This document shows positions 12,261 to 52,747 of a stretch of DNA of 64,000 nucleotides, in pieces. This stretch comes from a virus. Its lineage: Duplodnaviria > Heunggongvirae > Uroviricota > Caudoviricetes. The first letter of the stretch is position 1. The number at the start of each line of letters is the position of its first letter. The translations under genes were made by a program, and so were the position numbers. The notes under the pieces were generated by a model. It did no database searches, was not told the origin of the DNA, and saw nothing but the letters and a program-made list of their open reading frames with translations. Location: IMG/VR virus record IMGVR_UViG_3300013005_000022, positions 54,443-118,442 of that record, one strand, 5' to 3'.

Positions 12261-12445
12261 TGAAATGGGAAGAATGAAGGAGAATTACCTAGTAACTTAC
12301 TAGTACTGCCTGAAGAACTATATTATTTCCTCGATCACCTTAGATAAAGGTTATATGTTAATAATCACTGGTCAGATTCAGTACATTCTTTGATTCATTT
12401 AAGCTTTTTTTGCAAATAATAATAAAACCGAAGAGATGCTATTAG

Positions 12446-13771: not shown

Positions 13772-13774
13772 TTT

Positions 13775-15565: not shown

Positions 15566-15620
15566 TCACCTAATACATATCAGAAAATCCCAGATATATA
15601 ATTAAAAATAACGACGACCA

Positions 15621-29950: not shown

Positions 29951-29954
29951 ATAT

Positions 29955-39917: not shown

Positions 39918-40724
39918 ATGTACACAATTAACACAACAGCAGCGAAGTGTGAAGCACACATCGCAATGAATCGAAGCCGACTTAAGTCGTATTCAAACAA
40001 TTACTATCTTAAAGACTCTTCAAATTTTGAGATAGAACTATTCAATCCTCATGCACATTCAGTTTTAGCTAAGATTAAAATGAATGGCAGCTACATCTCT
40101 AATTCAGGATTGGTAATTAAACCGGGTCAAAGAGTATTTCTTTCTCGCTACCTAGATTCAAATAACAGTTTCTTATTCGAGACTTATGATATTGAATCTG
40201 ATAATGAAGTTGCAAAGAAGGCTATTGAAAACAATGGATCTATAGAAATTGAGTTTTATTATGAAGTTTCTAATTTTATTGGTAAACCTTATTGGGTATC
40301 TAGCGGATCTTCTCTACTAGGTAACACCGGAAATGGAATTTATTATAGCCATTCCGGCAATATCAATTACACAAATGACGTTACCTTCACCTCAATTAAC
40401 ACAAACAACTTTGATTCAATTAACACAAACATGCCGATTGCCGGTAGTTTATCAAACACTAGCAATGGAAGTAATCTAATGAATGTCAGCTCTAAAATAG
40501 AGACTGGAAGAATAGAAAAGGGTGGATCTACTAAACAGAAATTTGAAACGGATAATGGAAGTTATAACGTATTCTATTCTGAGTTATTGGCTATTAAATT
40601 ACTCCCTTCGTCAGCCAAACCGATTGAGGTTTCTGAAATTCGTACATATTGTACCGGATGTGGAACTCGAATGAAAAAACAAACATGGAAATTCTGCCCT
40701 AATTGCGGAACTAAAATTGACTAA
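39918..40724 (+). CDS. hypothetical protein with Asn/Ser-rich region and C-terminal zinc ribbon
   Basis: CTGCGTRMKKQTWKFCPNCGTKID; flanked by inverted repeats. Confidence 0.55.
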   Translation: MYTINTTAAKCEAHIAMNRSRLKSYSNNYYLKDSSNFEIELFNPHAHSVLAKIKMNGSYISNSGLVIKPGQRVFLSRYLDSNNSFLFETYDIESDNEVAKKAIENNGSIEIEFYYEVSNFIGKPYWVSSGSSLLGNTGNGIYYSHSGNINYTNDVTFTSINTNNFDSINTNMPIAGSLSNTSNGSNLMNVSSKIETGRIEKGGSTKQKFETDNGSYNVFYSELLAIKLLPSSAKPIEVSEIRTYCTGCGTRMKKQTWKFCPNCGTKID

Positions 40725-40727
40725 TTA

Positions 40728-40745
40728 GAGAGTGAGGCCTCTATG
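40728..40745. repeat. right arm of the inverted repeat flanking ORF 39918-40724
   Basis: AGAGTGAGGCCTCTATG. Confidence 0.8.
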
Positions 40746-40752
40746 TTTTAAA

Positions 40753-40836
40753 TTGTTAATAACTTTCCAATCCGAGATTTTTTAATTTCGGATTTTTTTA
40801 TTATATTTGTAATATCAAATTAAATAAAAAACAATT
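40753..40836 (+). promoter_or_regulatory. conserved promoter cassette with hairpin, copy 5 of 8
   Basis: TTGTTAATAACTTT; hairpin AATCCGAGATTTTTTAATTTCGGATTTTTTT; TATATTTGTAATATCAAATTAAATA. Confidence 0.65.
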
Positions 40837-41037
40837 ATGGAATCAATTAAATTAGACTACAGCAAAATCTCAAACGTATTCGTAGGTGGAATCGATATGG
40901 AAGATTTTCCAGATTTTTGCGATGCTTACATCGAATCTGCCGATTATGGAAATCGTGAAATGACCGACGAAGAACTAGAAATTCTTAACGAAGACGGTAG
41001 CTTTATTTCTGAACATGCACACTCTCAAATTTTTTAA
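40837..41037 (+). CDS. hypothetical acidic protein
   Basis: 66-aa ORF after a promoter cassette. Confidence 0.45.
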   Translation: MESIKLDYSKISNVFVGGIDMEDFPDFCDAYIESADYGNREMTDEELEILNEDGSFISEHAHSQIF

Positions 41038-41197
41038 TATGATAATTTACATGATACAAACTCTTCAATTACTAGCTAACACAAGAGGAGAAGAATTCGT
41101 AAAGGCGATTGCTGAATGTGGAAGATTCCAGCAAACAAAAGATGGTGTTCCATTCTTGATAATTGAAGATGAAGATAAACTTAATACGTTGATATAA
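41015..41197 (+). CDS. hypothetical protein
   Basis: 60-aa ORF; start uncertain. Confidence 0.35.
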   Translation: MHTLKFFNMIIYMIQTLQLLANTRGEEFVKAIAECGRFQQTKDGVPFLIIEDEDKLNTLI

Positions 41198-41198
41198 A

Positions 41199-41690
41199 AT
41201 GGGAAAATTACGAAATTACGAAAAGATTAAATGGAAGCCTTTTCAAATTCGAGAAGGTAACATTTCAGTAACCAACTATTGGACAGATAAAGACGGAAAG
41301 AAATATCCTGTTCAATCTCATCTAGATATTCCTAGATATTCATTCTTTGAAATTCTTAAATGGGAGCCTAATGGTTATTATGGCAAACTTCAAGATTACC
41401 TAAACGATGGTTGGGTAATCTCATTTGGTGGAGATTTTCTTCAAAAAGATAGAACCTCAATTTCTCTTTCATTCTTCACTGAAAGTCCTGAATCATGTTT
41501 CATGCTTGCATCTTGGGAAAACATGGACCATGATGAAAAGTCACCTGATTTAAAATTCGTAGGATGTCGTCCAATGAATTTAACTGAAGATGAACAAATG
41601 ATATTTATGAAACTTGCAAAAGCAGGACAAGAGCATATCGAAGAAATTTTGAATACTTTTAACGAAGAAGATTATGATAACTGGAATTAA
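41199..41690 (+). CDS. hypothetical protein
   Basis: 163-aa ORF. Confidence 0.5.
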   Translation: MGKLRNYEKIKWKPFQIREGNISVTNYWTDKDGKKYPVQSHLDIPRYSFFEILKWEPNGYYGKLQDYLNDGWVISFGGDFLQKDRTSISLSFFTESPESCFMLASWENMDHDEKSPDLKFVGCRPMNLTEDEQMIFMKLAKAGQEHIEEILNTFNEEDYDNWN

Positions 41691-42036
41691 ATACTCAACC
41701 AGAATAGTCTTTATTCTAAAGACGGTAGTTATTAAAATTCCTGTAAGTAGAAGAGGTTATCTTCAAGGACTTAATGAAAAACGGATATGGGACAAGTACA
41801 AAGACATTACTTCGCTAGCAGAACTGAAATGGATGTGTATGGGTATCGTATGCCAGAAGAAATATAACACCATTTCGTCAATACCAACTAGAGTAGTTAA
41901 ACGTAACAAAGCATCTATGCCGGAATTTGATTTCGATAATTGCGATCTTTACAATCCAGAAAATTGGGGAATAGATGGTAAGAAATATATTCTACTAGAT
42001 TATGGAGTTAATGAACATATAGCCGGTTTATACTAA
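41674..42036 (+). CDS. hypothetical protein
   Basis: 120-aa ORF. Confidence 0.45.
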   Translation: MITGIKYSTRIVFILKTVVIKIPVSRRGYLQGLNEKRIWDKYKDITSLAELKWMCMGIVCQKKYNTISSIPTRVVKRNKASMPEFDFDNCDLYNPENWGIDGKKYILLDYGVNEHIAGLY

Positions 42037-42044
42037 ACACTAAA

Positions 42045-42126
42045 TTGTTAATAACTTTCCACAAAAAAATTTTTTTATTCCAAAAAAAAGTATTATATTT
42101 GTAATATCAAATTAAATAAAAACAAT
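42045..42126 (+). promoter_or_regulatory. conserved promoter cassette, copy 6 of 8
   Basis: TTGTTAATAACTTT ... TATATTTGTAATATCAAATTAAATAAAAAC. Confidence 0.6.
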
Positions 42127-42405
42127 ATGAACAATTCTCTTCAATCTGGTAATTACATGAAAGTTACTCCAGTTCGTTTATTCTTAGCAATGTACCCAAT
42201 CGAGTGTATGAATGCTAATAAACTAGAAAAACATATGGGTGAATATGATGTTTACTTTAAAACATCTGATCTTAAAACCATTATGTCTGATTCTATATTT
42301 CGCGAATTAGAATGTGAGGTTACCACGCACATGATTCTTTCCGAACCAGAAAAGCAATCTTATTACAACAACGAATTAACATACGATCAAATCGCTACTC
42401 GTTAA
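42127..42405 (+). CDS. hypothetical protein
   Basis: 92-aa ORF after a promoter cassette. Confidence 0.45.
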   Translation: MNNSLQSGNYMKVTPVRLFLAMYPIECMNANKLEKHMGEYDVYFKTSDLKTIMSDSIFRELECEVTTHMILSEPEKQSYYNNELTYDQIATR

Positions 42406-42406
42406 T

Positions 42407-42498
42407 TTGTTAATAACTTTCCCACAATAAATTTTACTTTTTGGTAAACTTTTATTATATTATTAATATAAAATAAAAACTTAAATATCATACAGACT
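42407..42498 (+). promoter_or_regulatory. divergent promoter cassette, copy 7 of 8, upstream of the sigma factor gene
   Basis: Upstream box TTGTTAATAACTTT retained; core diverged to TTATTATATTATTAATATAAAATAAAAAC. Confidence 0.5.
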
Positions 42499-43098
42499 AT
42501 GGCTAAAAACGAATCATTAAAGGAATTAGGAATCGAGTTTAAAGAAACTAGATCAGAACGAGTATTCACCGATTTATATCATCGTCTTAAACCAGGGTTA
42601 ACAAATTACGTATTTCAAATCGTAAAAGATTACGATATGTCTAATCATATTGTTTCTAGCGTAATGTCTGAGGTTTATAACAAAATCGATAAATACGATC
42701 CTAAATGGCATATCTCTACATGGATTTATCGTATTGCATATACACATGCTTGTGGTTATCTTCGAGCTAAAAAAGTTCAACGAACGGTTTCTCTATCCGC
42801 ATTCGATAACGATGAAAATCGCAATCGTCTACATAAACTAGAATTCGATTCTATCGAAGATCACCGTGATGCTATTGAAAAACGTGAAGATGAAGATGCG
42901 GAAAAAGCTCATGTTAATTATCTTCGTACAATCGTCGATAATTTACCAATTGAATATCGTGAAGTGGTTGTGGAAAAATTCTACAATGATTTAAAGTATG
43001 ATGAAATCGCTGCCAAGCTAAATATTCCACTTCATACCGTAAAAAACCGAATTTCACGAGGTAAACGAATCATTCAAGAGGAACTCACCAAAAAATAA
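42499..43098 (+). CDS. RNA polymerase sigma factor, sigma-70 family (ECF-like)
   Basis: Region 2-like YRIAYTHACGYLR; region 4 HTH DLKYDEIAAKLNIPLHTVKNRISRGKRIIQEEL. Confidence 0.75.
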   Translation: MAKNESLKELGIEFKETRSERVFTDLYHRLKPGLTNYVFQIVKDYDMSNHIVSSVMSEVYNKIDKYDPKWHISTWIYRIAYTHACGYLRAKKVQRTVSLSAFDNDENRNRLHKLEFDSIEDHRDAIEKREDEDAEKAHVNYLRTIVDNLPIEYREVVVEKFYNDLKYDEIAAKLNIPLHTVKNRISRGKRIIQEELTKK

Positions 43099-43114
43099 TT
43101 AATACCTATTTATT

Positions 43115-43147
43115 CAATTGTCACTTATCATTGATAGGTGACAATTG
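43115..43147. promoter_or_regulatory. perfect 10-bp inverted repeat (operator/terminator candidate) between the sigma factor gene and the secreted-protein operon
   Basis: CAATTGTCAC-N13-GTGACAATTG. Confidence 0.5.
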
Positions 43148-43221
43148 ATGTTTCTACTCAACGCTGGTAGTAAGCATCTTTTTCATCACTTTTAAGATAC
43201 ATATCTTAAAACAAACACAAA

Positions 43222-45144
43222 ATGAAGAAATTGCTTAAATCATTTTTACTGATGATTATTTTAGCTCTTCCGATTCTTACATTTGCACAATCCGGTCCAC
43301 CGGCACCAAGTGCAGGAATTTGGGCTTTAATAGATACTAACTATACAGTTGGTACTTCAACAGTAGGAATCTCTCAGGCTAAAATCACTCTAAAAAATAC
43401 AACGGCTACTTTATATACCGGTGTTCAATTTAGAGTATTTTACGACAAAAATGCTTTCTCATCAGCATCAGTTGCTTTGTTAGGATCTACTACAAATTTA
43501 TATTTACAATCAGTAGATAACAACACAGCAGGTTATGTGACTATCTCTTTAGTTTATACAGGAAGTAGTTCTGCATATACATTAGCCGATGGAGAAAGAT
43601 TTGAACTTACGTTTAACCACGTATCTCCGGCAGCATTCTATGCTTTGCCATCGATCAGTGCATTAACTTGGACTGGTTCTGCTACTTACACTCAAGTGGC
43701 TGCTGAACAAAGTGGTTTAGATACCACTTTAAGTTTACACAGCTATGGTGGAAACTGGTTACGTCCAGAACTTGATTACCATGGTACATTTACTAACGTA
43801 ACTGGTACTGGTGCAAAAAACCTTACTCTTGCATTAGAGAAAAAAGTTAAGATTGGTGGAACATGGGGAACTCATGCAACATACATAACAGACATTAATG
43901 GAGACTTTGCATTCTCAGAAATTATCGATACAACATATTATGATGTTCGTTTAGCAGTTCAAGGAGATTCCATGACTGTTGGTAACGTTATTTCAACTGC
44001 CGATGCTCAGTTAATTAATCAATGGGTTCTTGGTGGAGCTACTCCTACAGGATTCGATTTTTATACCGGAGATGTTAATGGATCTAATGGAATATCGATC
44101 ACTGATGCTTATGGAGTATTTGGAAGAATCGCTGGTAGATTCTCTACTTGGCCTAACTCAGTTAAAGATGTTAAATTCTTTACCGCTGCTGAATATGCAA
44201 CTATTACCGGAACACCATCAACAAACTTTACTGGATCTATCCCCGGAGTTACCAACTTCTATTTTGATATTCTACCTGGAGCACCTGATAGTGTAACTTA
44301 TTATGTATGTGTACCTGGTGATGCAAATGGAACCGGTTATAATATGGCTCGTTTAACCCCAATTGACGTGGTAATCAATCCACCAGCTGGAACTCCTGCA
44401 CAACAAGAAAACGTAGTAGATATGAAAGTTGAATATGACTTTCCTACATCTTCTATGGAAGTTAGATTACCTTCATTATCAGTTAAAGAAGGAAACCTGG
44501 TAGAACTTCCTGTTAGTGTACATACAAATGGTCAAGATATTTCTGCTTTACAACTTTCAATGTTATACGATCAAACTCTTTTACAATTCAAAGATGTTCA
44601 AAACTCACCAAAAGCAATGTTTTGGATGTCTTCTATCAATCCTACTGGAGGTATTGTAGAATGGTCTGGATATGACCCATCAGCGAACAAATCATATATG
44701 ATACCTGATGGTTATGAAGTATTCACTCTTCGTTTTTTGGCTCTTAAACCTCAAAATGAATGGAATCAATCACCTTTATATACAACTAGAAAATTTTCAG
44801 GAAATTCAAATTCTAAAGACATGACAATTACTCCAGCTAATGGAATTCTAATTGTTGCTAAAATGGCAAATGTTGGTGGAATCTTAGACGAAAGAGAAAT
44901 GACAGTTTTTCCTAATCCTACTACCGGAGAAATCACGGTAGAGTTTAGTGTAAAACAGACTGGTCCAGTTAAGTTATATATAGTAGGTATGAACGGAGTT
45001 ATATCTCATGTAATTCTTGATAGAGATATGCCAGAAGGTGAATACATTTATACTTCTAATATCAATCATCTTACTCAAGGAATATATGTGGCTTCATTAC
45101 AAGCTAAAAATCAAAAAAACTCTGCTAAAATAATTAAAAACTAA
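43222..45144 (+). CDS. secreted protein with type IX secretion system C-terminal sorting domain
   Basis: Signal peptide MKKLLKSFLLMIILALPILTFAQ; C-terminal ~80 aa VFPNPTTGEITVEF...VKLYIVGMNGVI...LTQGIYVASLQAKN..SAKIIKN matches the T9SS type-A CTD pattern. Confidence 0.75.
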   Translation: MKKLLKSFLLMIILALPILTFAQSGPPAPSAGIWALIDTNYTVGTSTVGISQAKITLKNTTATLYTGVQFRVFYDKNAFSSASVALLGSTTNLYLQSVDNNTAGYVTISLVYTGSSSAYTLADGERFELTFNHVSPAAFYALPSISALTWTGSATYTQVAAEQSGLDTTLSLHSYGGNWLRPELDYHGTFTNVTGTGAKNLTLALEKKVKIGGTWGTHATYITDINGDFAFSEIIDTTYYDVRLAVQGDSMTVGNVISTADAQLINQWVLGGATPTGFDFYTGDVNGSNGISITDAYGVFGRIAGRFSTWPNSVKDVKFFTAAEYATITGTPSTNFTGSIPGVTNFYFDILPGAPDSVTYYVCVPGDANGTGYNMARLTPIDVVINPPAGTPAQQENVVDMKVEYDFPTSSMEVRLPSLSVKEGNLVELPVSVHTNGQDISALQLSMLYDQTLLQFKDVQNSPKAMFWMSSINPTGGIVEWSGYDPSANKSYMIPDGYEVFTLRFLALKPQNEWNQSPLYTTRKFSGNSNSKDMTITPANGILIVAKMANVGGILDEREMTVFPNPTTGEITVEFSVKQTGPVKLYIVGMNGVISHVILDRDMPEGEYIYTSNINHLTQGIYVASLQAKNQKNSAKIIKN

Positions 45145-45470
45145 TGTCAGAAGAAACACAAGATCACAATGACGGAACTTGGTCAGGTCTAAAGAAAACT
45201 CTTATTGGAACAATTTCTACAGCAGTACTTGCTGGAGGAACTTGGTTAACCACTACTTTATTTAATGGCGGTAGTGACGATAAAGAAGAAACTAAAACTG
45301 AACAGGCTGCTCCAGCTCCTGTTATTGTTAACGTTCAACAAAATCAAGAGAACACTCAAAAACAACAAAACAATGGTGGTACCAACACTATCATCAGAGA
45401 AAGAGTTATAGAGAAACCTGTTGAAAAGAAAGAAGAAAAGAAAAAAGAATCTGAGGATGCTCCTTGGTAA
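45144..45470 (+). CDS. membrane-anchored protein with disordered Lys/Glu-rich tail
   Basis: One transmembrane helix (LIGTISTAVLAGGTWLTTTLF); start overlaps upstream stop. Confidence 0.45.
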   Translation: MSEETQDHNDGTWSGLKKTLIGTISTAVLAGGTWLTTTLFNGGSDDKEETKTEQAAPAPVIVNVQQNQENTQKQQNNGGTNTIIRERVIEKPVEKKEEKKKESEDAPW

Positions 45471-45489
45471 ACTAAAAACAAATAAAAAA

Positions 45490-45780
45490 ATGGCTAAATT
45501 ACAAAACACCAAACCAAACTTCTTTAAGCGAATGTTTATGGATGATAATGATATTAATGAAAAATCTATCGTTGGATTCTGTGCATTTTTAGTAATGTGT
45601 ATTGCATTTGGAGTTGATATTTACACCGGAATTAAAGGTATGCCTTTTGAGATTAACGAATTCATTTTTGATGGATTTATGGTTATCACTTTAGGTGCAT
45701 TCGGTATTGCTTCAGTTGACAAATACATAACTGGAAAGAAAGGCGTAAGTTCATCTAATGATGAGACTCCAGTAGAATAA
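45490..45780 (+). CDS. small membrane protein
   Basis: Start moved to the internal ATG after the upstream stop; two hydrophobic helices. Confidence 0.45.
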   Translation: MAKLQNTKPNFFKRMFMDDNDINEKSIVGFCAFLVMCIAFGVDIYTGIKGMPFEINEFIFDGFMVITLGAFGIASVDKYITGKKGVSSSNDETPVE

Positions 45781-45793
45781 AAAAATAAAAAAC

Positions 45794-46513
45794 ATGAAAG
45801 CACTTATAACTTTTATAATGCTGATATTTTTTGCTCAAACTAGTATTGCTCAGATTGGCACCGTCAAGTCTGAGCAATACCAAGCAGAGTTTGAGAAGAA
45901 GCAATCACTCGATGCTTTACCAGAATATACAGACACAATCAAGATTCCTATTCAGATTCTTAAAATCGGAATCAATGAAGAGTTATACGAAATGTATCCT
46001 GAATTGAAAGATAAAAGAGTTGGATTAGGAGTAACTAATATTGTTCTTGAATATCTCGAATACACCAATCGTTTCGTTTTTACTGAAGATAAACTTGAAA
46101 TTAAAGAGCGAATGGTTCAACAATTTAAAGCATCTGATAAAGGCTTTACTGAAAATAAAATCGACGGTAGAGGAAAGATTAAGTTAGCTAAATACTTTGT
46201 GTATATAGAAGTCTATGATTTTTCGGTATCCGATGATGAAGTTGTAAAGATTAACGGAGAATCCAAGACTACTCAGATAACTCGTTTAGGATTACAAGTT
46301 AAATTCGTAGATGCTGAAACCGGAGAGATTATTATGGGATCTGGACTCGGAGAAGCTACTACCGTTAAGACTGCTACTATTTTAGATGGGGTTGACGATA
46401 GTGATATTAAATTCAATCAATCACATATTGGTATAACTACCAAGAAATCTCTTGAAACGGCATCTTCTAGAATCGTTGCAAGAATGATAAAAAAAGGAAT
46501 TTTCAAATCGTAA
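45794..46513 (+). CDS. secreted hypothetical protein
   Basis: Signal peptide MKALITFIMLIFFAQTSIAQ. Confidence 0.55.
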   Translation: MKALITFIMLIFFAQTSIAQIGTVKSEQYQAEFEKKQSLDALPEYTDTIKIPIQILKIGINEELYEMYPELKDKRVGLGVTNIVLEYLEYTNRFVFTEDKLEIKERMVQQFKASDKGFTENKIDGRGKIKLAKYFVYIEVYDFSVSDDEVVKINGESKTTQITRLGLQVKFVDAETGEIIMGSGLGEATTVKTATILDGVDDSDIKFNQSHIGITTKKSLETASSRIVARMIKKGIFKS

Positions 46514-48208
46514 ATGTATGTTAGAAAATTCATATTCTTTTTTGTATTTTTGTTTATTACAATTGCAAGTTACGGTCAGACATTCAATTACTCGTATACT
46601 GACCCTTGTACTGGTGTAATAAAAACTATGCAGGTTCCATCAAATGGAATAACCATAACTTATTATGGACAAGTAAACACATTCCAACCATCAGATTTCT
46701 ATAATGGTGGTTTTGAGAGTTGGGCTCAAGGAGTCTATTCTTCATTTGGTAACAACAATCCATGTGCATCAGTGGTAGGTCTTCCTACTGGAATTAATAT
46801 TGCACAAAACACTGCAACTAATTTCTTAAGTATAGTAAATTCATTATCAGCTATTAGTGATTTGGCTGCATTGAATGGAGCTACCAATATTCTATCTGGA
46901 GTAGGTAGTGTATCAAATGCAAGTGGAAAAAAGGAAGAAAATAAAAAAGGAGGAAATGGTACACCAAATACTAACTCTGGAGGAAGTACACAAAATTCTG
47001 GAGGAAGCTCTACTACTCCAGGAACCTCAGGAAATCAAGGAACTTCTTCTGGAAGCTCAGGATCTTCTACTACACAAGGATCAAACAATACAGGTTCATC
47101 TCAATCACCTCAGACAGGAGGTCAATCGTCTCAGTCACCTGTAGGATCTCAACAAAATCAAACCGGAACAAATGGAAACAGTAGCAACAGTAGTACCAAT
47201 AGTAATTCTAGTGGGACTAGTAATACTAGCGGTAATACAAACAATACTCAACCTTCAACTGGGTCAAATCAAACCCAAACCGGAGGAACACAAACTGGCA
47301 ATACATCGTCTGGAAGCACAAATGCAAATAGCGGCAATGCTAATCAAGGTGGGAGTGGAACCTCAAGCGGCAATGGATCGAGCGGCCAAAATAGTAGCGG
47401 ATCATCTTCGTCCGGAGGATCTTCTGAAGGAAGTGGAACAGGAAATCAGCAAGGAGGAAGTGAAGCAACAAAAAGCGAAGAAGGCGGCAAAACGAACCTA
47501 GTTGGTGGATCGGTTGCATCTATAGGTAATTCAACTAATTCTGGAAGTGGATCTGCATCGAGCGAAAGTAGAAGACCAACTATACTTGCTAGTAGTGATT
47601 TGGTTGGATTTAATTTTAAAGATTCTGATGTTAGCAAAGGAGGTAAATTTACCGGAGGTTATACATCATTAAGATGGGATGGACAAAGATCTCACGGATT
47701 TTTAGTCGATTATACAACCGCTCTTAAAGGACCTAATGTTACTGCATTCTATGCATATATCAAGAAGAAAAGAATTGATTTGATATCAACTACTCTTACA
47801 TTAGGATTCGATAGAAAAACTTCAGTATATGGAACTTTGGCCGTAGGTCAAATGTGGAACATTGATAAAAAGAAAAAACTTAAAGCCGTTTACATGTTAA
47901 CCGGATCCTTTGGTAGTGTATACGAAGAAGCTTTCGTTGGAACCGCTGCAATTGCCGGTGTAATGTACGATTTAAAAGTTTCAAAACGAATAGATATTAA
48001 ACTAATGGGGCTATATGTCTATGCTCCTTATGTTAGTTATTATAATGACATACTACTAAAATCTCCTCATGTAGTTCTTCCTATCATTGGAACTAACATT
48101 GGACTTACGAAGAGATTTAAGTTAAACATAAATGGTGGTGGCGCTTGGGCACTAAACGAAAATGCACTGAACTACACCATAATGATGGGTACTAGATTTT
48201 TATTATGA
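46514..48208 (+). CDS. secreted protein: signal peptide, ~230-aa Ser/Gly/Thr/Asn/Gln low-complexity region, C-terminal outer-membrane beta-barrel-like domain
   Basis: Signal peptide ...ITIASYGQ; long low-complexity region; C-terminal alternating-hydrophobic strands ending ...GTRFLL (aromatic terminus typical of outer-membrane barrels). Confidence 0.55.
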   Translation: MYVRKFIFFFVFLFITIASYGQTFNYSYTDPCTGVIKTMQVPSNGITITYYGQVNTFQPSDFYNGGFESWAQGVYSSFGNNNPCASVVGLPTGINIAQNTATNFLSIVNSLSAISDLAALNGATNILSGVGSVSNASGKKEENKKGGNGTPNTNSGGSTQNSGGSSTTPGTSGNQGTSSGSSGSSTTQGSNNTGSSQSPQTGGQSSQSPVGSQQNQTGTNGNSSNSSTNSNSSGTSNTSGNTNNTQPSTGSNQTQTGGTQTGNTSSGSTNANSGNANQGGSGTSSGNGSSGQNSSGSSSSGGSSEGSGTGNQQGGSEATKSEEGGKTNLVGGSVASIGNSTNSGSGSASSESRRPTILASSDLVGFNFKDSDVSKGGKFTGGYTSLRWDGQRSHGFLVDYTTALKGPNVTAFYAYIKKKRIDLISTTLTLGFDRKTSVYGTLAVGQMWNIDKKKKLKAVYMLTGSFGSVYEEAFVGTAAIAGVMYDLKVSKRIDIKLMGLYVYAPYVSYYNDILLKSPHVVLPIIGTNIGLTKRFKLNINGGGAWALNENALNYTIMMGTRFLL

Positions 48209-49878
48209 GAAAGTTTATCACCACACTAATTGCCGTTTTGGTAACATGTGCTACATATGCACAAACGTTTACATATTCAGGCTACATCTATAACGCAAAT
48301 GGTACCGGAGCAGTAAATGTTCCAGTAAAGTTGTATAAGAGAACAACTCCAGTATTGACTGGATTCACATCTCAAACAAATTATAACGGTCACTCATATT
48401 ACCGATCAACTAGTAGTATGACTTGGACTGCTGCAAAAACTGCATGTGAAAATATGAACGGTCACTTAGCTACCGTATCTAATGCAGCGGAAAATAATTT
48501 CCTATTCAATACTTGGCCATCTGGTTGGATTGGTTATTATCAAGATAAGGTTGGTGGATATACTTATTCAGAACCGGCCGGTGGATATCGTTGGACTGAA
48601 AGTAAAGTAACTTCCGGATTAGCATCGGATTATGATGTTTCATCTTATACATCAGGATCTACTTTAACTGATATCAAATCAAGTATTAATGCCACTCTTT
48701 ATAATACTCCATCATACTCTAGTACAGGAGGAAAGTACTTAGCATTTAATGGATCTAATCAATATGCAATTACCGGCGATTTAGCTTCTAAATTCTCTTC
48801 AACTGCAATATCAGTAGTTACATGGATTTATCCTACAGGAAATGGTGTTATTGCATCAGAATTAAATATTGCAAGTCCTACATCCGGATGGCATGAATCT
48901 ATAATAGAAATCACTGGGTCTAATACTCTTCGAATCGGTCTTTGGAACGGAACTGGAATTACTCAATTAAGCACTGCTATTACTCTTAATACCTGGAATA
49001 TGGTTTGTATTACATATGATGGAACTACAATGAGAGGATATCTAAATAATGTGAGTTTTGGTAGTGTTAACTTTTCTCGTCAGGCAGCCTTTTTACATAG
49101 TGGTAATGGACAACAACATTTTGCATTCGGTTTAAGTGATGCAACCCATATGGGATCTGGTGCTTATGGTTCTTTTAGATTAGGACTTATTCAATTTTTC
49201 GATAGAGCAATTACCGTTGATGAAATTGATAGAACTTTCAATTTTTATGCATACCGTTATCGAACAAACCAATATACAAATTGGAATCCCGGAGAACCTA
49301 ATGATGCAGGAACCGAAGACTATGCTCAATTTGTTGGTGGTGGAAAATGGAATGATCTTCCGAATATGTCTCTTCCTTATGTGATTGAATTTGATTATGT
49401 TGTTGGATTTACTTCATGGGTTTTACATCAAACAGTTTATACGAATTCATCAGGATTCTATTCATTTTCTCAGGCATCAAATCCATCAGTTGAATGGTAT
49501 ATACAAATTGATGCACCTACTCCTGTAACTATTCATCAAACTTCGGATTTAAGTTCAATAGGAAATATTGTATTAGGTAGTACTACCAAGAAATCTTTAC
49601 ATTGGAATATGTTCGATGTGAATAACGATGGAAATATAACAGTATCCGATGCATACTATGTGAGTGGAAAGAAAAATGGAATATTTGCCAGTTGGATAGG
49701 ATCTCAAAGATCTGCTCTATATACGATTGCTCAATTTAATGCACTTAATTCTGGAACAACTAATTTAAAGGCAACATATCCAGGAGTAAGTTCTTTTACG
49801 ATATCTACTCCAGTGAGTGGCGGATCTACAAATTATTATCTAATAGCTCCAGGTTATGCTGGACAAGTAACATATTAA
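48205..49878 (+). CDS. secreted C-type lectin-like protein with large inserted domain
   Basis: Signal peptide ...VTCATYAQ; CTLD N-half WTAAKTACENMNGHLATVSNAAENNFL..WIGYYQD and C-half WNPGEPNDAGTEDYAQFVGGGKWNDLP separated by a ~230-aa insertion. Confidence 0.6.
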   Translation: MRKFITTLIAVLVTCATYAQTFTYSGYIYNANGTGAVNVPVKLYKRTTPVLTGFTSQTNYNGHSYYRSTSSMTWTAAKTACENMNGHLATVSNAAENNFLFNTWPSGWIGYYQDKVGGYTYSEPAGGYRWTESKVTSGLASDYDVSSYTSGSTLTDIKSSINATLYNTPSYSSTGGKYLAFNGSNQYAITGDLASKFSSTAISVVTWIYPTGNGVIASELNIASPTSGWHESIIEITGSNTLRIGLWNGTGITQLSTAITLNTWNMVCITYDGTTMRGYLNNVSFGSVNFSRQAAFLHSGNGQQHFAFGLSDATHMGSGAYGSFRLGLIQFFDRAITVDEIDRTFNFYAYRYRTNQYTNWNPGEPNDAGTEDYAQFVGGGKWNDLPNMSLPYVIEFDYVVGFTSWVLHQTVYTNSSGFYSFSQASNPSVEWYIQIDAPTPVTIHQTSDLSSIGNIVLGSTTKKSLHWNMFDVNNDGNITVSDAYYVSGKKNGIFASWIGSQRSALYTIAQFNALNSGTTNLKATYPGVSSFTISTPVSGGSTNYYLIAPGYAGQVTY

Positions 49879-49883
49879 ATATC

Positions 49884-50339
49884 ATGAAAAAACTACTTCT
49901 TTTATTACTACTTTTGCCAATCCTATCATTTGGACAAATCAATCCATGTGTTCATGTGGATTCGATATACTCAACCGCCAAATTTAAGGAAATGGGAAAT
50001 CGAGATATTCGTTTCGGTATCAAACAAATGGCTGAAGATATTCTATCTGAAAAATACTGCATCAATGCATCATCGCCGGATGTAGATATTGAGGTGTTCT
50101 TCTTCGGTTTGCCTAGAACTACAATTAGAATAGTTGGTGTTGAAAAGACTAATCAGATAACACAAGTTGGGATTCGTATTTATTATAACGGTTCAAAATA
50201 TGAAGCATACGGAGAATCCGATACTGAAATTAGAACTATAATGTTAGAGGTTGCAGAAGGTCAAATGCCATTCTCTAAAATGACAATATCCAATGCAATA
50301 AAAAAAGCACTAGTATCATGCGTATCACAAATGCCTTAA
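49884..50339 (+). CDS. secreted hypothetical protein
   Basis: Signal peptide MKKLLLLLLLLPILSFGQ. Confidence 0.5.
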   Translation: MKKLLLLLLLLPILSFGQINPCVHVDSIYSTAKFKEMGNRDIRFGIKQMAEDILSEKYCINASSPDVDIEVFFFGLPRTTIRIVGVEKTNQITQVGIRIYYNGSKYEAYGESDTEIRTIMLEVAEGQMPFSKMTISNAIKKALVSCVSQMP

Positions 50340-50782
50340 TCTTCTTTCTTCTTCTTTTACCTACATTAACATTTGGACAAATTACAGTTCAAGATGTTGG
50401 TGATAGATGGAAGGCTAAAGTTGATTCGGCAATTGAATTAATAAAGAAGACAGATACCATATCGTATCAAATTCTGATTGAGAATTGTAAAGATGTTGAA
50501 TTTATTATTGGTAAGTACTCAACTACAAAACCTCCTTATACGATTGCAATAACCACTAAAGACATGAACCTAAATTCAATCAATAATATTGCTGCGGTTT
50601 TGGTTCATGAATCCTATCATCTTTTTATATACAATAACAAGATACGTTACTCTATTAACGAAGAAGAGGCAGTTTGTTATCAAAGAGAATATGATTTCCT
50701 ATGTAAGCTATCCGATGTTGAAGATTGGTTATTCCTTAATGCCATGAATAACATCATTCTTTATCGAACTCCGAAGAAGTAA
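50318..50782 (+). CDS. secreted small protein with HExxH motif (zincin-like candidate)
   Basis: Signal peptide ...LPTLTFGQ; VLVHESYHLF contains HExxH. Confidence 0.45.
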   Translation: MRITNALIFFLLLLPTLTFGQITVQDVGDRWKAKVDSAIELIKKTDTISYQILIENCKDVEFIIGKYSTTKPPYTIAITTKDMNLNSINNIAAVLVHESYHLFIYNNKIRYSINEEEAVCYQREYDFLCKLSDVEDWLFLNAMNNIILYRTPKK

Positions 50783-50833
50783 CCGTTTTATTGAAAAGTT
50801 CATATAATTTATAATTGAACTAAAACAAACCCC

Positions 50834-50977
50834 ATGAAAAGATTATTTATTATTGGTGGAATTCTTATGATTCTATCGGGAATTGCAGGCTGGATTTATG
50901 GCTCGTATAAAGCAGATGAAATTCTTAAAGAGGATTCATATCAAGAATCTATGATGATACCTAATAGAAGCAAATAA
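50834..50977 (+). CDS. unannotated 47-aa membrane peptide
   Basis: MKRLFIIGGILMILSGIAGWIYGSYKADEILKEDSYQESMMIPNRSK; below the ORF-track length cutoff; stop overlaps the next ATG. Confidence 0.35.
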   Translation: MKRLFIIGGILMILSGIAGWIYGSYKADEILKEDSYQESMMIPNRSK

Positions 50978-51399
50978 TGGAATTACTTAACACACATCCA
51001 ATTAAGAAATCTGATTTAGGTTTCCATGGAAATCTATTCGGCGGAAAACTTCTTGCTTGGATTGATGCAGCGGCTGCCGGATTTGCCATGCAATTGTGTG
51101 ATTCTCCAAGAATGGTTACCGTAAGTATTGATAAATGTTATTTTGAACGTCCAGCGAAAGAAGGTAATTTGGTGAAAATTTACGGCAAGCCTAGTGAATT
51201 AGGATTTACTTCTATCACCATGTATCTTGAAGCTAGAGCACACAATGTTTATACCGGAAAGCAAACTCTAGTTCTTAAAACACAAATTAAATTTGTCCAT
51301 ATCGACGAAGAAGGAAATCCTATTCCTATTGGAGAGAAAGGGCGTATGAGAATAACTAAATTGTTAGAAAATGAAAACACCGCACCAACTAAAGATTGA
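50977..51399 (+). CDS. hotdog-fold acyl-CoA thioesterase (YciA-like)
   Basis: HGNLFGGKLLAWIDAAAAGFA matches the acyl-CoA hydrolase signature (HG.lFGG.lL.W.D). Confidence 0.7.
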   Translation: MELLNTHPIKKSDLGFHGNLFGGKLLAWIDAAAAGFAMQLCDSPRMVTVSIDKCYFERPAKEGNLVKIYGKPSELGFTSITMYLEARAHNVYTGKQTLVLKTQIKFVHIDEEGNPIPIGEKGRMRITKLLENENTAPTKD

Positions 51400-52012
51400 T
51401 TTTGATTTAGATGAATTCGATCAAAAGAAGAACCCAAAACGAATAAAAGATTTATTGAGTAATATCAATGATTGGTTATGGCAAAATGTAGGATGGAGAA
51501 TCCGCTACGTATATAGATCCATAAAGAATGTTATTCGTTGGATGCCAATTATTTGGAAAGATCAGGATTGGGATAGTAGTTACATATTTGAAATTCTTAA
51601 ATTCAAGTTAGCTAATCAAGCCAAATATATTGGCGGTCACGATCGACATACCACTGCAAAACGTGATGCTGAAATTATGATGACTTGCGTTAGGCTAATT
51701 GATAAAGTTCAAGATGAATTTTATGACGGTGAATATATGGACTATCACGAATCTAATTTTAGATTTGAACCTTGCGAAGATAAACCAGGTTATTCTGAAA
51801 TGCACATAGATGAAATCTCTAATCGATATCCCGAGTATTTTGCTAAATATCCTCGTCAATATAAACGAGCATTAGATCCAAATACTAAATGGTATTATAG
51901 CGAGAAATCAGATAAAACTATTGCAATGTGGATTGGTGATGAAAATCAAAAACGTGCACAAACTCTACTCTTCAAAATTATGAACGAAAACATCCGAAAA
52001 TGGTGGGATTGA
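51371..52012 (+). CDS. hypothetical protein
   Basis: 213-aa ORF. Confidence 0.5.
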   Translation: MKTPHQLKIDFDLDEFDQKKNPKRIKDLLSNINDWLWQNVGWRIRYVYRSIKNVIRWMPIIWKDQDWDSSYIFEILKFKLANQAKYIGGHDRHTTAKRDAEIMMTCVRLIDKVQDEFYDGEYMDYHESNFRFEPCEDKPGYSEMHIDEISNRYPEYFAKYPRQYKRALDPNTKWYYSEKSDKTIAMWIGDENQKRAQTLLFKIMNENIRKWWD

Positions 52013-52117
52013 TAATTAGAAGTACATACTTAATCATTAGATGTACTTCTCGGTTCATCTAATGACCTTAATAGAAAGAATAACTATTATATAGATTATC
52101 TTACAATAAGTACCCTA

Positions 52118-52220
52118 TTGTTAATAAACTACCAAAAATTGTTAATAACTTTTTGACCCGAGATTTTTTAATCTCGGGTTTTTGTTTTATATTTGTTATA
52201 TCAAATTAAATAATAAACAT
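52118..52220 (+). promoter_or_regulatory. conserved promoter cassette with hairpin, copy 8 of 8 (duplicated upstream box)
   Basis: TTGTTAATAAACT + TTGTTAATAACTTT; hairpin GACCCGAGATTTTTTAATCTCGGGTTTTTG; TATATTTGTTATATCAAATTAAATA. Confidence 0.65.
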
Positions 52221-52517
52221 ATGAAAAATTTACCTATTTACGCAAAAACTCTTTTACTTCAAGGCGCTTCAACAACCGGTACATTTACCGAAGGTTATTA
52301 CTTCGTTGAAGAACAAATCCGCGTAAAAGACTCAAAAACATTATTTGAATTTTGTCAATGGATCGATATAAACATAGGTGGAGCTGCTTCTGGTAACATT
52401 GATATGTTATTCTCTGCATTCAAAAATCCATTTAATGTTGAATATTCAACATATGTTGAATTAAACAAACAAGCAAATGAATTAGCAATCAAAATTCGTA
52501 ATATCAAATCTCTATAA
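52221..52517 (+). CDS. hypothetical protein
   Basis: Start moved to the ATG after the promoter core. Confidence 0.5.
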   Translation: MKNLPIYAKTLLLQGASTTGTFTEGYYFVEEQIRVKDSKTLFEFCQWIDINIGGAASGNIDMLFSAFKNPFNVEYSTYVELNKQANELAIKIRNIKSL

Positions 52518-52518
52518 T

Positions 52519-52743
52519 ATGTCTAATACGTTCAATACTCGACAAGATGTTATCAAAGCATTAGAAACTGAATTTTCTCATAAACCAGGAAGTTTCAATA
52601 ACAACGAAAAAACAAAGTCCAGAGAAAAATTCTGGACGTACAATCGTTTACTTCGTTTCTATTGGGATATCAAATGCGGTTTCAAAGAAACTTACCGAAC
52701 GCAATACAATAAACAAACTGGTTACTACGAACTTATAAAATAA
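52519..52743 (+). CDS. hypothetical protein
   Basis: 74-aa ORF. Confidence 0.45.
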   Translation: MSNTFNTRQDVIKALETEFSHKPGSFNNNEKTKSREKFWTYNRLLRFYWDIKCGFKETYRTQYNKQTGYYELIK

Positions 52744-52747
52744 AAAT

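What the first reader, a model, noticed from the sequence alone, without database searches (positions are those of the whole stretch)
42499..50782. Phage sigma factor followed by a palindrome and an operon of seven signal-peptide proteins including a T9SS cargo
The sigma gene is followed by CAATTGTCAC-N13-GTGACAATTG at 43115-43147. Then come seven consecutive ORFs with overlapping stops and starts, each with a Bacteroidetes-type signal peptide: the T9SS-CTD protein, a lectin, a barrel-like protein and an HExxH protein. This looks like a dedicated regulon by which the phage places its own proteins on or outside the host cell envelope using host Sec and T9SS. Possible purposes are surface remodelling, superinfection exclusion, adhesion or biofilm manipulation, or release-related functions.
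Basis: partly seen in the sequence, partly recalled or inferred. Interest (0 to 1): 0.8.

Follow-up and report, generated by a model that had tools for sequence, protein, structure and literature searches.

The report
Conserved phage module of exported envelope proteins
A large Flavobacterium-type phage carries a widely conserved eight-gene block whose proteins are built for export to the host's periplasm, outer membrane and surface (one via the type IX secretion system); in most related phages the block sits beside the lysis genes rather than the sigma factor, which is only a chance neighbour here.

Summary
The sequence features are real. There is an ECF-type sigma gene at 42499-43098 and a near-perfect 35-nt palindrome at 43114-43148. 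A tightly packed block of eight genes (A-H) follows at 43222-50782.

Six of the eight proteins have Bacteroidota "A/G|Q" signal peptides; the other two are small inner-membrane proteins.
- A is a T9SS type-A cargo with cohesin and dockerin-like modules.
- F is a C-type-lectin/LamG protein with a dockerin-like module.
- D and G are paralogous, divergent CsgG/LpoB-superfamily proteins.
- H is a minimal zincin.

The "dedicated sigma regulon" reading is not supported.
- The A-H block recurs, in the same order, in at least 187 viral contigs and in cultured Flavobacterium phage vB_FspM_immuto, which has no detectable homologue of this sigma.
- Sigma homologues in 26 other loci lack the block.
- The palindrome is most simply the sigma gene's 3' hairpin or terminator.

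In 41 of 64 non-redundant loci an endolysin lies within three genes of the block. So this is a conserved, undescribed, lysis-linked envelope module. Export is strongly inferred; its function is unknown.

The parts
42407..42498 (+). Variant copy of the phage's repeated early-promoter cassette upstream of sigma. It has TTGTTAATAACTTT at 42407-42420, but the -7 box reads TATATTAT instead of TATATTTG.
   Evidence: Eight + strand copies of the TTGTTAATAACTTT box were found (0 of 100 shuffles reach the observed count). The other seven are followed by a TAnnTTTG box 33-39 nt before an ATG.
42499..43098 (+). ECF-type sigma-70 family sigma factor. It is a backbone gene of this phage group and is not part of the module.
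   Evidence: Pfam r2 + r4_2; TIGR02937 above cut-off; phrog_1740. Conserved at 54-60% identity in relatives that lack the module nearby.
43114..43148 (+). 35-nt near-perfect palindrome forming an RNA hairpin (16 bp, 3-nt loop), followed by TGTTTCT. Probably the terminator or 3'-end hairpin of the sigma transcript.
   Evidence: Conserved in L001 with a change in the loop base. Non-homologous terminator hairpins follow sigma in L007 and L010-12.
43190..43211 (+). Second, AT-rich palindrome TTTTAAGATAcaTATCTTAAAA. It contains GATACATA (43196), a one-mismatch copy of the GATAAATA motif found 27-88 nt upstream of three other genes. Candidate promoter of the module.
   Evidence: ATAAATA-type motifs lie 23-39 nt upstream of gene A in L015, L016, L020, L027, L038 and L092. 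This is inference only.
43222..45144 (+). A: 640-aa exported T9SS cargo. Signal peptide (A22|Q23), dockerin-like module (aa ~246-311), cohesin (aa 412-528), type-A T9SS C-terminal sorting domain (aa 562-640).
   Evidence: 25/25 homologues hit Por_Secre_tail, 21/25 Cohesin, 7/25 Dockerin_1. PDB dockerin 4uyp_B matches at E 0.0015.
45144..45470 (+). B: 108-aa bitopic membrane protein. It has one TM segment (aa ~18-40) and a low-complexity, K/E-rich C-terminal tail.
   Evidence: Conserved in 61 of 64 loci directly after A. No family hit.
45490..45780 (+). C: ~96-aa protein with two TM helices and a charged C-terminus (holin-like). The start is taken at the ATG shared with L013.
   Evidence: In L057, L060, L063, L064 and L084 the C homologue lies after H, directly next to the GH19 endolysin. 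Counting the distant C-like family c17 as well, there are 8 such loci. No holin family hit, so the holin role is an inference.
45794..46513 (+). D: 239-aa exported protein, a divergent member of the CsgG/LpoB superfamily. It is the most conserved gene of the module.
   Evidence: 65-93% identity across viral loci. 6211 homologues in the large protein database, some named CsgG by JGI. Of the 31 distant relatives found with the D profile, 14 hit Pfam CsgG and 8 hit LpoB; D itself, also in the 32-member scan, hit nothing. No direct Pfam or PDB hit. The AF2 model is poor, pLDDT 46.
46514..48208 (+). E: 564-aa exported protein. It has an N-terminal Cys-containing domain (aa ~22-125), a variable S/G/N/T/Q low-complexity linker, and a C-terminal 12-stranded outer-membrane beta-barrel (aa 340-564, nt 47531-48205).
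48205..49878 (+). F: 557-aa exported lectin. C-type lectin (aa 71-123), Laminin_G_3 (aa 182-341, absent in many relatives), and a C-terminal module paralogous to A aa 215-368 that carries a dockerin-type loop DVNNDGNITVSD. It has no T9SS CTD.
   Evidence: Dockerin_1 only 0.0028, below cut-off. Paralogy of A and F at about 30% identity, E about 1e-10. Variable middle region.
49884..50339 (+). G: 151-aa exported protein, a short paralogue of D with an invariant Cys22.
   Evidence: hhalign of the D family against the G family: probability 97.4%, E 8.9e-12, 150 columns. Alignment A3.
50318..50782 (+). H: 154-aa exported minimal zincin. Invariant H97-E-S-x-H101 plus E116-E117, Y121 and E124.
   Evidence: Alignment A4. 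Weak but recurrent hits: SprT-like in 10/23 members (best 5.8e-4), Tox-MPTase2 in 6, DA1-like in 4. No PDB sequence hit.
50834..52012 (+). Three further genes that probably belong to the same transcription unit: a 47-aa single-TM ORF (50834-50977), a 4HBT/YciA-like acyl-CoA thioesterase (50977-51399), and a 213-aa protein (51371-52012).
   Evidence: No convincing terminator follows H (dG -4.9, z -1.5). A thioesterase lies within the fetched neighbourhood of the module in eight of the non-redundant loci (L021, L022, L038, L057, L058, L059, L062).
52155..52180 (+). First canonical intrinsic terminator downstream of the module (GACCCGAGATTTTTTAATCTCGGGTT followed by a T run). It is embedded in the next early-promoter cassette.

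Best explanation
Genes A-H (43222-50782) form a conserved, phage-specific envelope module of large myoviruses that infect Flavobacterium and related Bacteroidota.

Inferred routing of the products:
- All six signal-peptide proteins cross the inner membrane by Sec.
- E is then inserted into the outer membrane as a 12-stranded barrel. It carries an N-terminal domain on a long, flexible, low-complexity tether.
- A is handed to the host T9SS by its type-A C-terminal domain and ends up on the cell surface.
- F is a lectin with a dockerin-type module but no secretion tag. It most likely binds A's cohesin, either in the periplasm (and is co-exported) or at the surface. That would give a lectin-bearing cohesin-dockerin scaffold.
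- D and G (CsgG/LpoB-like paralogues) and the zincin H act in the periplasm or at the inner face of the outer membrane.
- B and C stay in the inner membrane.

The module is transcribed from its own promoter, downstream of a hairpin that ends the sigma transcript. It probably belongs to the late, lysis-associated gene class. Its most likely role is to prepare the envelope for, or at, virion release. That could mean masking or binding surface glycans so that progeny are not lost on infected cells and debris, and/or weakening or timing the breach of the outer membrane.

Shown: the domain content, the conservation and synteny, the independence from sigma, and the linkage to endolysins. Inferred: actual export, the A-F pairing, late timing, and the biological role.
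For: Phage context: terminase, tail sheath and topoisomerase II; all genes on one strand.

Cohesin and dockerin. The A/F shared module.

D and G: D belongs to the CsgG/LpoB superfamily by transitive homology. G is a paralogue of D.

Conservation: 187 viral loci, with A-B-(C)-D-E-F-G-(H) collinear in nearly all 80 fetched. A cultured Flavobacterium phage carries it. In cellular genome collections it appears only on 4 MAG contigs.

Lysis linkage: a GH19 or M15 endolysin lies within 3 genes in 41/64 loci. It appears in different positions and orientations and as two unrelated enzyme types. In L021, L022, L029, L032 and L037 the endolysin stop codon lies only about 10-55 nt before gene A's ATG.

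Independence from sigma.

Hairpin as terminator.
Against: - No expression, localisation or binding data exist.
- In this phage and its closest relatives no endolysin lies near the module, nor anywhere in the 64-kb window.
- 13 of the 64 loci with complete flanks also lack an endolysin within three genes.
- C matches no known holin family.
- The dockerin assignment in F is below the Pfam cut-off.
- D could not be modelled, so whether it forms a channel is unknown.
- The hairpin has a weak U-tract (TGTTTCT), unlike the phage's other terminators, so a 5'-UTR or operator role is not excluded.
- The candidate promoter rests on an 8-nt motif with one mismatch.
- A large lectin/cohesin scaffold is not obviously needed for lysis.
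Confidence: 0.55

Rival explanations
1. First reader's model. The neighbouring sigma factor and the palindrome (as an operator) form a dedicated regulon that switches on this operon of exported proteins.
For: The sigma gene lies immediately upstream in this phage and in three near-identical contigs. The intergenic region lacks the host-type TAnnTTTG promoter used by the phage's early cassettes, so a non-host promoter is plausible. The palindrome is far stronger than chance.
Against: The adjacency is confined to one lineage. The other 26 sigma loci (25 distinct contexts plus near-duplicates) lack the module within 10 kb, and 63 of 64 non-redundant module loci lack sigma. The complete genome of phage immuto has the module but no sigma homologue. 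The palindrome's half-site occurs nowhere else in the window. It lies 16 nt after the sigma stop codon, where relatives have ordinary terminators.
Confidence: 0.1
2. The module is the outer-membrane and periplasm arm of the lysis system of these phages. It would be a functional substitute for spanins, which are not recognisable here. C would be the holin and B an inner-membrane partner. D/G, the barrel protein E and the zincin H would destabilise or bridge the outer membrane. A/F would be accessory.
For: Endolysin adjacency in 41/64 loci, with non-orthologous replacement (GH19 vs M15) at the same place. The small gaps in some loci imply co-transcription with the endolysin. C-like 2-TM genes lie directly beside the endolysin. 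Type-II membrane coiled-coil proteins (c50) and extra OM barrels (c7 DUF481, c41) are inserted in the module in some loci. E's roughly 200-residue flexible tether could span the periplasm.
Against: There are no hits to any holin, spanin or disruptin family. A 640-aa T9SS cargo and a lectin have no known role in lysis. The module is not next to an endolysin in this phage. D's extreme conservation suggests interaction with a conserved host machine rather than simple membrane damage.
Confidence: 0.25
3. Superinfection exclusion or surface remodelling expressed during infection. The surface lectin scaffold would mask the phage receptor, and periplasmic factors would block or degrade incoming DNA. 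This role would be independent of lysis.
For: Surface-directed lectin, LamG and cohesin domains. A signal-peptide Endonuclease_NS sits inside the module in 15 loci, and this phage encodes one at 25964-26539. There is precedent in other phages for lipoprotein or periplasmic exclusion proteins (own knowledge: T5 Llp, T4 Imm/Sp).
Against: Exclusion genes are usually early and single. Here there are eight genes, often co-transcribed with an endolysin. No match to defence-system models. No host-type early promoter lies in front of the module.
Confidence: 0.2
4. The proteins are virion or baseplate components (lectin, LamG and cohesin domains are common in tail fibres), and the N-terminal hydrophobic segments are not functional signal peptides.
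For: Lectin and Laminin_G3 domains are reported on jumbo-phage fibres (PMC7824862). The window does encode structural genes.
Against: Six of the eight proteins have canonical n-h-c signal peptides with A/G|Q sites that are conserved across homologues. One protein has a T9SS CTD in 25/25 homologues. One is an integral OM barrel. D relatives are lipoproteins. No PHROG structural family hits. The module lies outside the structural gene block.
Confidence: 0.03

Closest known systems
T9SS type-A cargo proteins of Bacteroidota (Por_Secre_tail / TIGR04183 C-terminal domain proteins)
   Same: Protein A has an N-terminal Sec signal peptide and a C-terminal about-75-aa type-A sorting domain. Both score above the Pfam and TIGRFAM cut-offs. 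The domain is conserved in all 25 homologues tested.
   Different: It is encoded by a lytic-type large phage, not by the cell. It combines cohesin and dockerin-like modules. I found no published description of phage-encoded T9SS cargo in four full-text searches.
Cohesin-dockerin scaffolds (cellulosome-type assemblies)
   Same: A has a cohesin domain. A and F share a module with dockerin-type Ca-binding loops (DVNGSNGISITD in A, DVNNDGNITVSD in F). The A profile matches a solved dockerin.
   Different: There are no glycoside hydrolases. The cargo is a lectin. The scaffold would be anchored through T9SS rather than an SLH domain or sortase. The pairing is untested, and F's dockerin score is below the cut-off.
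Type Va autotransporters and FapF-type 12-stranded secretion barrels
   Different: No sequence match to the Pfam autotransporter domain or any other family. No confident pore-filling helix precedes the barrel. The linker is a roughly 200-residue low-complexity tract of variable length. The topology of the N-terminal domain, outside versus periplasmic, is unknown.
CsgG / LpoB superfamily lipoproteins (curli channel; PBP1B activator)
   Same: The D profile finds bacterial lipoproteins at E 1e-10 to 1e-33 that themselves match Pfam CsgG (14 of 31 distant relatives, best 1.9e-17) or LpoB (8). JGI labels many D orthologues CsgG. Some D orthologues have lipoboxes.
   Different: D itself does not reach any Pfam or PDB sequence threshold. 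The window copy lacks the lipid-anchor Cys. No curli subunit or CsgE/F genes are present. A second, shortened paralogue (G) accompanies it.
Phage lysis cassettes (holin-endolysin-spanin)
   Same: In most relatives the module is contiguous with a GH19 or M15 endolysin and with small 2-TM proteins.
   Different: There are eight extra exported proteins with no counterpart in known cassettes. No recognisable holin or spanin family is present. In this phage the module is separated from the endolysin.
Promoter-early stem-loop (PeSL) cassettes of T4-type phages (own knowledge: Arbiol et al. 2010)
   Same: The window has eight copies of an about-90-nt cassette made of a conserved box, a hairpin and a strong host-type promoter. 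They sit in front of small variable genes, including a variant before sigma.
   Different: The promoter here has the Bacteroidota TAnnTTTG type. The module itself is not preceded by such a cassette.

Membership tests
ECF-type sigma-70 family sigma factor | Region 2 and region 4 domains only, about 200 aa | tested here: met
   Sigma70_r2 2.7e-6; Sigma70_r4_2 3.2e-14. TIGR02937 68.1 bits vs cut-off 42.9.
ECF-type sigma-70 family sigma factor | Cognate promoter and regulon identified | not testable with these tools
   No ECF-type -35/-10 motif could be defined. Only comparative evidence is available, and it argues against a dedicated link to the module.
T9SS type-A cargo | N-terminal Sec signal peptide | tested here: met
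   MKKLLKSFLLMIILALPILTFA|QSG. 54/58 homologues have a signal-peptide-like N-terminus by a heuristic. No SignalP was available.
T9SS type-A cargo | C-terminal Por_Secre_tail / TIGR04183 domain at the extreme C-terminus | tested here: met
   Pfam 35.5 bits vs 27; TIGR04183 30.6 vs 23. 25/25 homologues hit it.
T9SS type-A cargo | Secretion dependent on host T9SS, with CTD cleavage | not testable with these tools
   Host assignment to Flavobacterium/Bacteroidota comes from the cultured relative and the MAG bins. That these hosts have a T9SS is established knowledge.
Cohesin-dockerin pair | Cohesin domain | tested here: met
   PF00963 42.1 bits vs 24.1 in A; found in 21/25 homologues.
Cohesin-dockerin pair | Dockerin with duplicated Ca-binding loops | tested here: inconclusive
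   A: Dockerin_1 in 7/25 homologues (best 7.8e-5), and PDB dockerin 4uyp_B at E 0.0015. F: 18.2 bits vs cut-off 22.9. One clear DxNxDGxIxxxD loop is visible in each.
Cohesin-dockerin pair | Specific binding between the two modules | not testable with these tools
   No complex prediction was available.
CsgG family (curli secretion channel) | Match to the family profile | tested here: not met
   No CsgG hit for D or for 22 viral orthologues even at E<=10. No PDB CsgG hit. Only transitive evidence through distant relatives.
CsgG family (curli secretion channel) | Lipoprotein signal (lipobox Cys) | tested here: not met
   The window copy ends its signal peptide in ...AQTSIAQ, without a Cys. Several orthologues and all distant relatives have LxxC.
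CsgG family (curli secretion channel) | Oligomeric transmembrane beta-barrel channel | tested here: inconclusive
   AF2 with a shallow alignment gave pLDDT 46. Long beta-hairpins are predicted at residues 134-196, but the model is unreliable.
CsgG family (curli secretion channel) | Neighbouring curli subunit or accessory genes (CsgA/B/E/F) | tested here: not met
   None of the module proteins hits such families.
Type Va autotransporter | C-terminal 12-stranded OM beta-barrel | tested here: met
Type Va autotransporter | Sequence membership (Pfam Autotransporter domain) and an alpha-helical linker inside the pore | tested here: not met
   No Pfam hit for 22 barrel sequences. Residues preceding the barrel are modelled as coil with pLDDT <50.
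Phage lysis cassette | Endolysin adjacent to the genes in question | tested here: not met
   None in this window. It is present within 3 genes in 41/64 related loci.
Phage lysis cassette | Holin: small protein with one or more TM segments and a charged C-terminus | tested here: inconclusive
   C has 2 TM helices and a charged tail and sits next to endolysins in relatives. It has no holin family match.
Intrinsic terminator | Stable stem-loop followed by a U-tract at the end of a gene | tested here: inconclusive
   16-bp stem, dG -20.8, 16 nt after the sigma stop codon. The tail TGTTTCT has 5 T in 8 and passes the scan, but it is weaker than the phage's other terminators.
Zincin metallopeptidase (SprT-like/minimal gluzincin) | HExxH plus a downstream Glu ligand | tested here: met
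   Invariant H97, E98, H101, E116 and E117 in 23 sequences.
Zincin metallopeptidase (SprT-like/minimal gluzincin) | Profile match above the curated cut-off | tested here: not met
   SprT-like best E 5.8e-4 in 10/23 members, all below 25.6 bits.

The most novel reading that the evidence does not exclude
The module is a previously unrecognised multi-protein machine by which Bacteroidota phages act on the outer membrane at the end of infection.

One version is a new kind of outer-membrane breaching or lysis-timing system that replaces spanins. It would combine a CsgG/LpoB-like pair, a tethered 12-stranded barrel, a zincin and holin-like proteins.

The other version is a phage-built surface coat. 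A T9SS cargo (A) would carry a tag-less lectin (F) through the host translocon by cohesin-dockerin 'piggy-back' and polymerise on the cell surface.
Probability: 0.3. Interest if true: 0.85.

Novelty: new variant of a known kind. Interest (0 to 1): 0.62.

Why it matters
How phages of Bacteroidota breach the outer membrane and deal with the cell surface at release is largely unknown. Recognisable spanins are missing here. I found no description of phage use of the phylum-specific type IX secretion system.

This module is abundant. Its most conserved protein has thousands of metagenomic homologues, and the module appears on at least 187 IMG/VR contigs of up to 434 kb. It is strongly conserved, restricted to phages, and physically tied to endolysins.

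A cultured phage-host pair carries it (vB_FspM_immuto with Flavobacterium sp. LMO8), so its role can be tested directly.

For annotation, this work also gives folds or families to five 'hypothetical' proteins.

Tried and rejected
- Megablast of the region against 50,697 phage records: no match.
- PHROGs, NCBIfam and PADLOC scans of the module proteins: nothing beyond the T9SS-tail matches for A and sigma-family matches for sigma.
- Rfam on 40500-53000: nothing.
- Profile searches of the D, G, H and E-barrel families against PDB sequences: nothing significant.
- AF2 of D with a 51-sequence alignment at 82-100% identity failed (pLDDT 46). The model was not used.
- The afdb50 fold library was unavailable.
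- Palindrome half-site elsewhere in the window (operator regulon idea): only chance-level one-mismatch hits.
- The motif ATATTTAT/TATTTAT precedes the module in 23 of 49 distinct related loci. In this window it occurs only once near the module, at 43107 just before the hairpin. It is not conserved in the closest relative L001, so I did not take it as the promoter here.
Only the adjacency test and the complete immuto genome are conclusive.
- Four literature searches found no description of this module or of phage T9SS cargo. The library is incomplete, so this is not proof of absence.

Full report
**Context.** The window is part of a large myovirus-type phage genome. GC content is 33% and essentially every gene is on the + strand. 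It encodes a large terminase (13775-15565), a tail sheath (15621-18881) and topoisomerase II subunits (28115-31313). There is no nucleotide-level match to 50,697 deposited phage genomes. The terminase is most similar to uncultured megaphages (39-44% identity) and to Tenacibaculum, Flavobacterium and Prevotella (Lak) phages (30-34%). Near-identical IMG/VR contigs are 122-254 kb long.

**Check of the observation.**
- The sigma gene (42499-43098) is a genuine ECF-type sigma-70 family member.
- The palindrome is exactly where stated and is longer than reported. It has 17-nt arms at 43114-43130 and 43132-43148 with 16/17 complementary. As RNA this is a 16-bp stem with a 3-nt loop, dG -20.8 kcal/mol, z = -6.4.
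- Downstream lie eight, not seven, tightly packed ORFs.
- Six of them (A 43222, D 45794, E 46514, F 48205, G 49884, H 50318) begin with a basic n-region, a hydrophobic core and a c-region ending in A or G followed by Q. This is the pattern typical of Bacteroidota signal peptidase I substrates (the 'Q-rule', own knowledge).
- B (45144-45470) has one internal TM segment. C (most likely 45490-45780) has two.
- The T9SS tail, the lectin domains and the HExxH motif are all confirmed.

**What the proteins are.**
- A (640 aa) carries a cohesin domain and a type-A T9SS C-terminal domain above curated cut-offs. Of 25 homologues at 47-85% identity, all hit Por_Secre_tail, 21 hit Cohesin and 7 hit Dockerin_1. 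The family profile also matches a solved dockerin at residues 246-311.
- F (557 aa) has a C-type lectin domain and a Laminin_G_3 domain. Its C-terminal module is paralogous to A residues 215-368 and contains a canonical dockerin loop. The LamG insert is absent in many relatives. F has no T9SS tail.
- D (239 aa) is the most conserved gene, at 65-93% identity where A is only about 47%. It has 6211 homologues in the large protein database, many labelled CsgG by JGI. D itself hits nothing in Pfam or PDB. An exhaustive HMMER search with its profile finds bacterial lipoproteins at E 1e-10 to 1e-33. Of the 31 examined, 14 match Pfam CsgG (best 1.9e-17) and 8 match LpoB. D is therefore a divergent member of the CsgG/LpoB superfamily. 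Whether it forms a channel is unknown, because the only model I could build was unreliable.
- G (151 aa) is a shortened paralogue of D (hhalign probability 97.4%, E 8.9e-12).
- H (154 aa) keeps an invariant HExxH plus EE, Y and E motif. It gives recurrent sub-threshold matches to SprT-like and other minimal zincins.
- None of the eight proteins matches any PHROG family or any defence-system model.

**The module is conserved and independent of sigma.** A search of IMG/VR with D found 187 loci. In nearly all of the 80 fetched, the genes lie in the order A-B-(C)-D-E-F-G-(H) on one strand. Only the single non-redundant locus that represents the window's three near-identical relatives has sigma nearby.

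The converse also holds. Sigma homologues were found in 29 viral loci, and apart from those three relatives none has any module gene within 10 kb. In relatives with 54-60% identical sigma, the gene sits in a conserved backbone: PhoH, phosphoesterase, kinase, sigma, then homologues of window genes 56682-58184. The window has the same backbone with the module and other genes inserted.

The complete 160-kb genome of cultured Flavobacterium phage vB_FspM_immuto carries the module as F, A (split in two), B, D, E, G at 10527-16409. No Flavobacterium phage appears among the 51 phage records with a sigma homologue at E<=1e-3.

In 185,579 species-representative cellular genomes, the D family occurs only on four MAG contigs binned as Bacteroidetes, Flavobacterium (two) and Sediminibacterium. 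One of these contigs is 254 kb. The module is therefore phage-specific and the hosts are Bacteroidota.

**Regulatory signals.** The window contains eight copies of a repeated cassette. Each has a TTGTTAATAACTTT box, a hairpin or AT-rich spacer of about 30 nt, and TTATTATATTTGTAATATCAAATTAAATA. This includes the Bacteroidota host-type -7 box TAnnTTTG, 33-39 nt before an ATG. One variant copy, with a degenerate -7 box, precedes sigma. Sigma therefore looks like a separately promoted gene of the early class.

No such cassette precedes gene A. The hairpin begins 16 nt after the sigma stop codon. In L007 and L010-L012, unrelated hairpins with a T-run or a T-rich tail occupy the same place after sigma. 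In L001 the hairpin is conserved, with the substitution in the loop. I therefore read the hairpin as the 3' end or terminator of the sigma transcript, which insulates the module. Its U-tract is weak, so a 5'-UTR or operator role cannot be excluded.

Between the hairpin and gene A lies a second AT-rich palindrome containing GATACATA. This is one mismatch from the GATAAATA motif found 27-88 nt upstream of three other genes (18976, 19628/19691, 25081). ATAAATA-type motifs also precede gene A at -23 to -39 in six other loci. The motif resembles the T4 late-promoter type (own knowledge) and is only a candidate.

There is no convincing terminator after H. The next canonical terminator is at 52155-52180. 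The transcription unit therefore probably also includes a 47-aa TM protein, a YciA-like thioesterase and a 213-aa protein.

**Linkage to lysis genes.** I clustered all ORFs of 64 non-redundant module loci. The commonest neighbour is a PG_binding_1 + Glyco_hydro_19 endolysin. In another group of loci a Peptidase_M15_3 endolysin follows G directly.

An endolysin lies within three genes of the module in 41 of 64 loci. It may be upstream, downstream or inverted. Thirteen loci with complete flanks lack one, including the window's close relative.

In L021, L022, L029, L032 and L037 the endolysin stop codon lies only about 10-55 nt before A's start codon, which implies one operon. Homologues of C, the small 2-TM protein, sit either between B and D or after H directly beside the endolysin.

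Some loci have further envelope genes inserted. These include a signal-peptide Endonuclease_NS between F and G in 15 loci, extra OM barrels (DUF481 and another) and a type-II membrane coiled-coil protein. This window contains no endolysin homologue.

**Interpretation.** Three things are shown:
- There is a phage-specific, strongly conserved module whose products carry conserved signals for Sec, for BAM-dependent outer-membrane insertion and for T9SS.
- The module has no conserved relationship with the sigma factor.
- The module has a conserved physical relationship with endolysins.

Four things are inferred: that the proteins are indeed exported; that F docks on A through the cohesin-dockerin pair; that the module is a late, lysis-associated transcription unit; and that it acts on the envelope around the time of release.

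I cannot decide between a role in breaching or timing the breach of the outer membrane and a role in coating or masking the cell surface. Both are listed with their tests. The virion-component alternative is very unlikely, given the export signals.

**Novelty.** Every domain type is known, and phage-encoded exported proteins and lysis cassettes are known kinds. The combination is not described in the literature I could search. That combination is a T9SS cargo with cohesin and dockerin modules, a tag-less lectin, a tethered 12-stranded barrel, two CsgG/LpoB-like paralogues and a minimal zincin, conserved as one block next to endolysins in hundreds of Bacteroidota phages. All its genes are annotated as hypothetical, lectin or cohesin proteins in the one cultured representative.

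Noticed in passing
window 3367, 6004, 26547, 27072, 40753, 42045, 42407, 52139 (each extending about 90 nt downstream): Eight copies of a repeated regulatory cassette. Each has a TTGTTAATAACTTT box, a hairpin such as GACCCGAGATTTTTTAATCTCGGGTT or an AT-rich spacer, and a Bacteroidota-type promoter (TTATTATATTTGTAATATCAAATTAAATA) 33-39 nt before an ATG. This resembles the promoter-early-stem-loop cassettes of T4-type phages, and the copies flank small variable genes.
   Followed up: partly
window 25964-26539 (+): The phage encodes a DNA/RNA non-specific endonuclease (Endonuclease_NS, E 4.6e-24) with a signal peptide (MKKLLFLLILCLPFFGYSQ). In 15 related loci the homologous gene sits inside the envelope module, between F and G.
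   Followed up: partly
window 50977-51399 (+), and related loci L021, L022, L038, L057, L058, L059, L062: A YciA/4HBT-type acyl-CoA thioesterase follows the module here. One lies within the fetched neighbourhood of the module in eight of the non-redundant related loci, on either side and on either strand. This suggests a looser linkage, possibly to lipid or membrane metabolism.
   Followed up: no
window 50834-50977 (+): An unannotated 47-aa ORF with one TM helix (MKRLFIIGGILMILSGIAGWIYGSYKADEILKEDSYQESMMIPNRSK) lies between H and the thioesterase. Its stop codon overlaps the thioesterase start.
   Followed up: no
window 34236-38252 (+); L006 3110-8230; L011 626-6454: A 1338-aa protein, 1700-1940 aa in relatives. 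In those relatives it consists largely of repeated hydrophobic, helix-like segments (many predicted TM repeats), with conserved N- and C-terminal ends. It lies just after a baseplate-hub-like gene and has no PHROG hit. It may be an unusual tape-measure or membrane-inserting protein.
   Followed up: no
proteins P0283, P0287, P0297, P0332: Distant bacterial relatives of D are lipoproteins in which the CsgG/LpoB-like domain is fused to a caspase (Peptidase_C14) domain. In one case it is fused to the C-terminus of a Ser/Thr protein kinase.
   Followed up: no
related loci L060, L063, L076, L081, L087, L088 (upstream of gene A): In several relatives the module starts immediately after a tRNA gene cluster. 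In 23 of 49 distinct loci a TATTTAT/ATATTTAT motif lies 27-66 nt upstream of gene A, often just after a GC-rich terminator. This is a different promoter-like signal from the one in this window.
   Followed up: partly
window 48748-49227 (F residues 182-341) versus L001/L013: The Laminin_G_3 domain of the lectin protein F is present in this phage but is cleanly absent from the otherwise 63-88% identical F of the closest relatives. This indicates recent domain gain or loss in the surface-directed lectin.
   Followed up: partly
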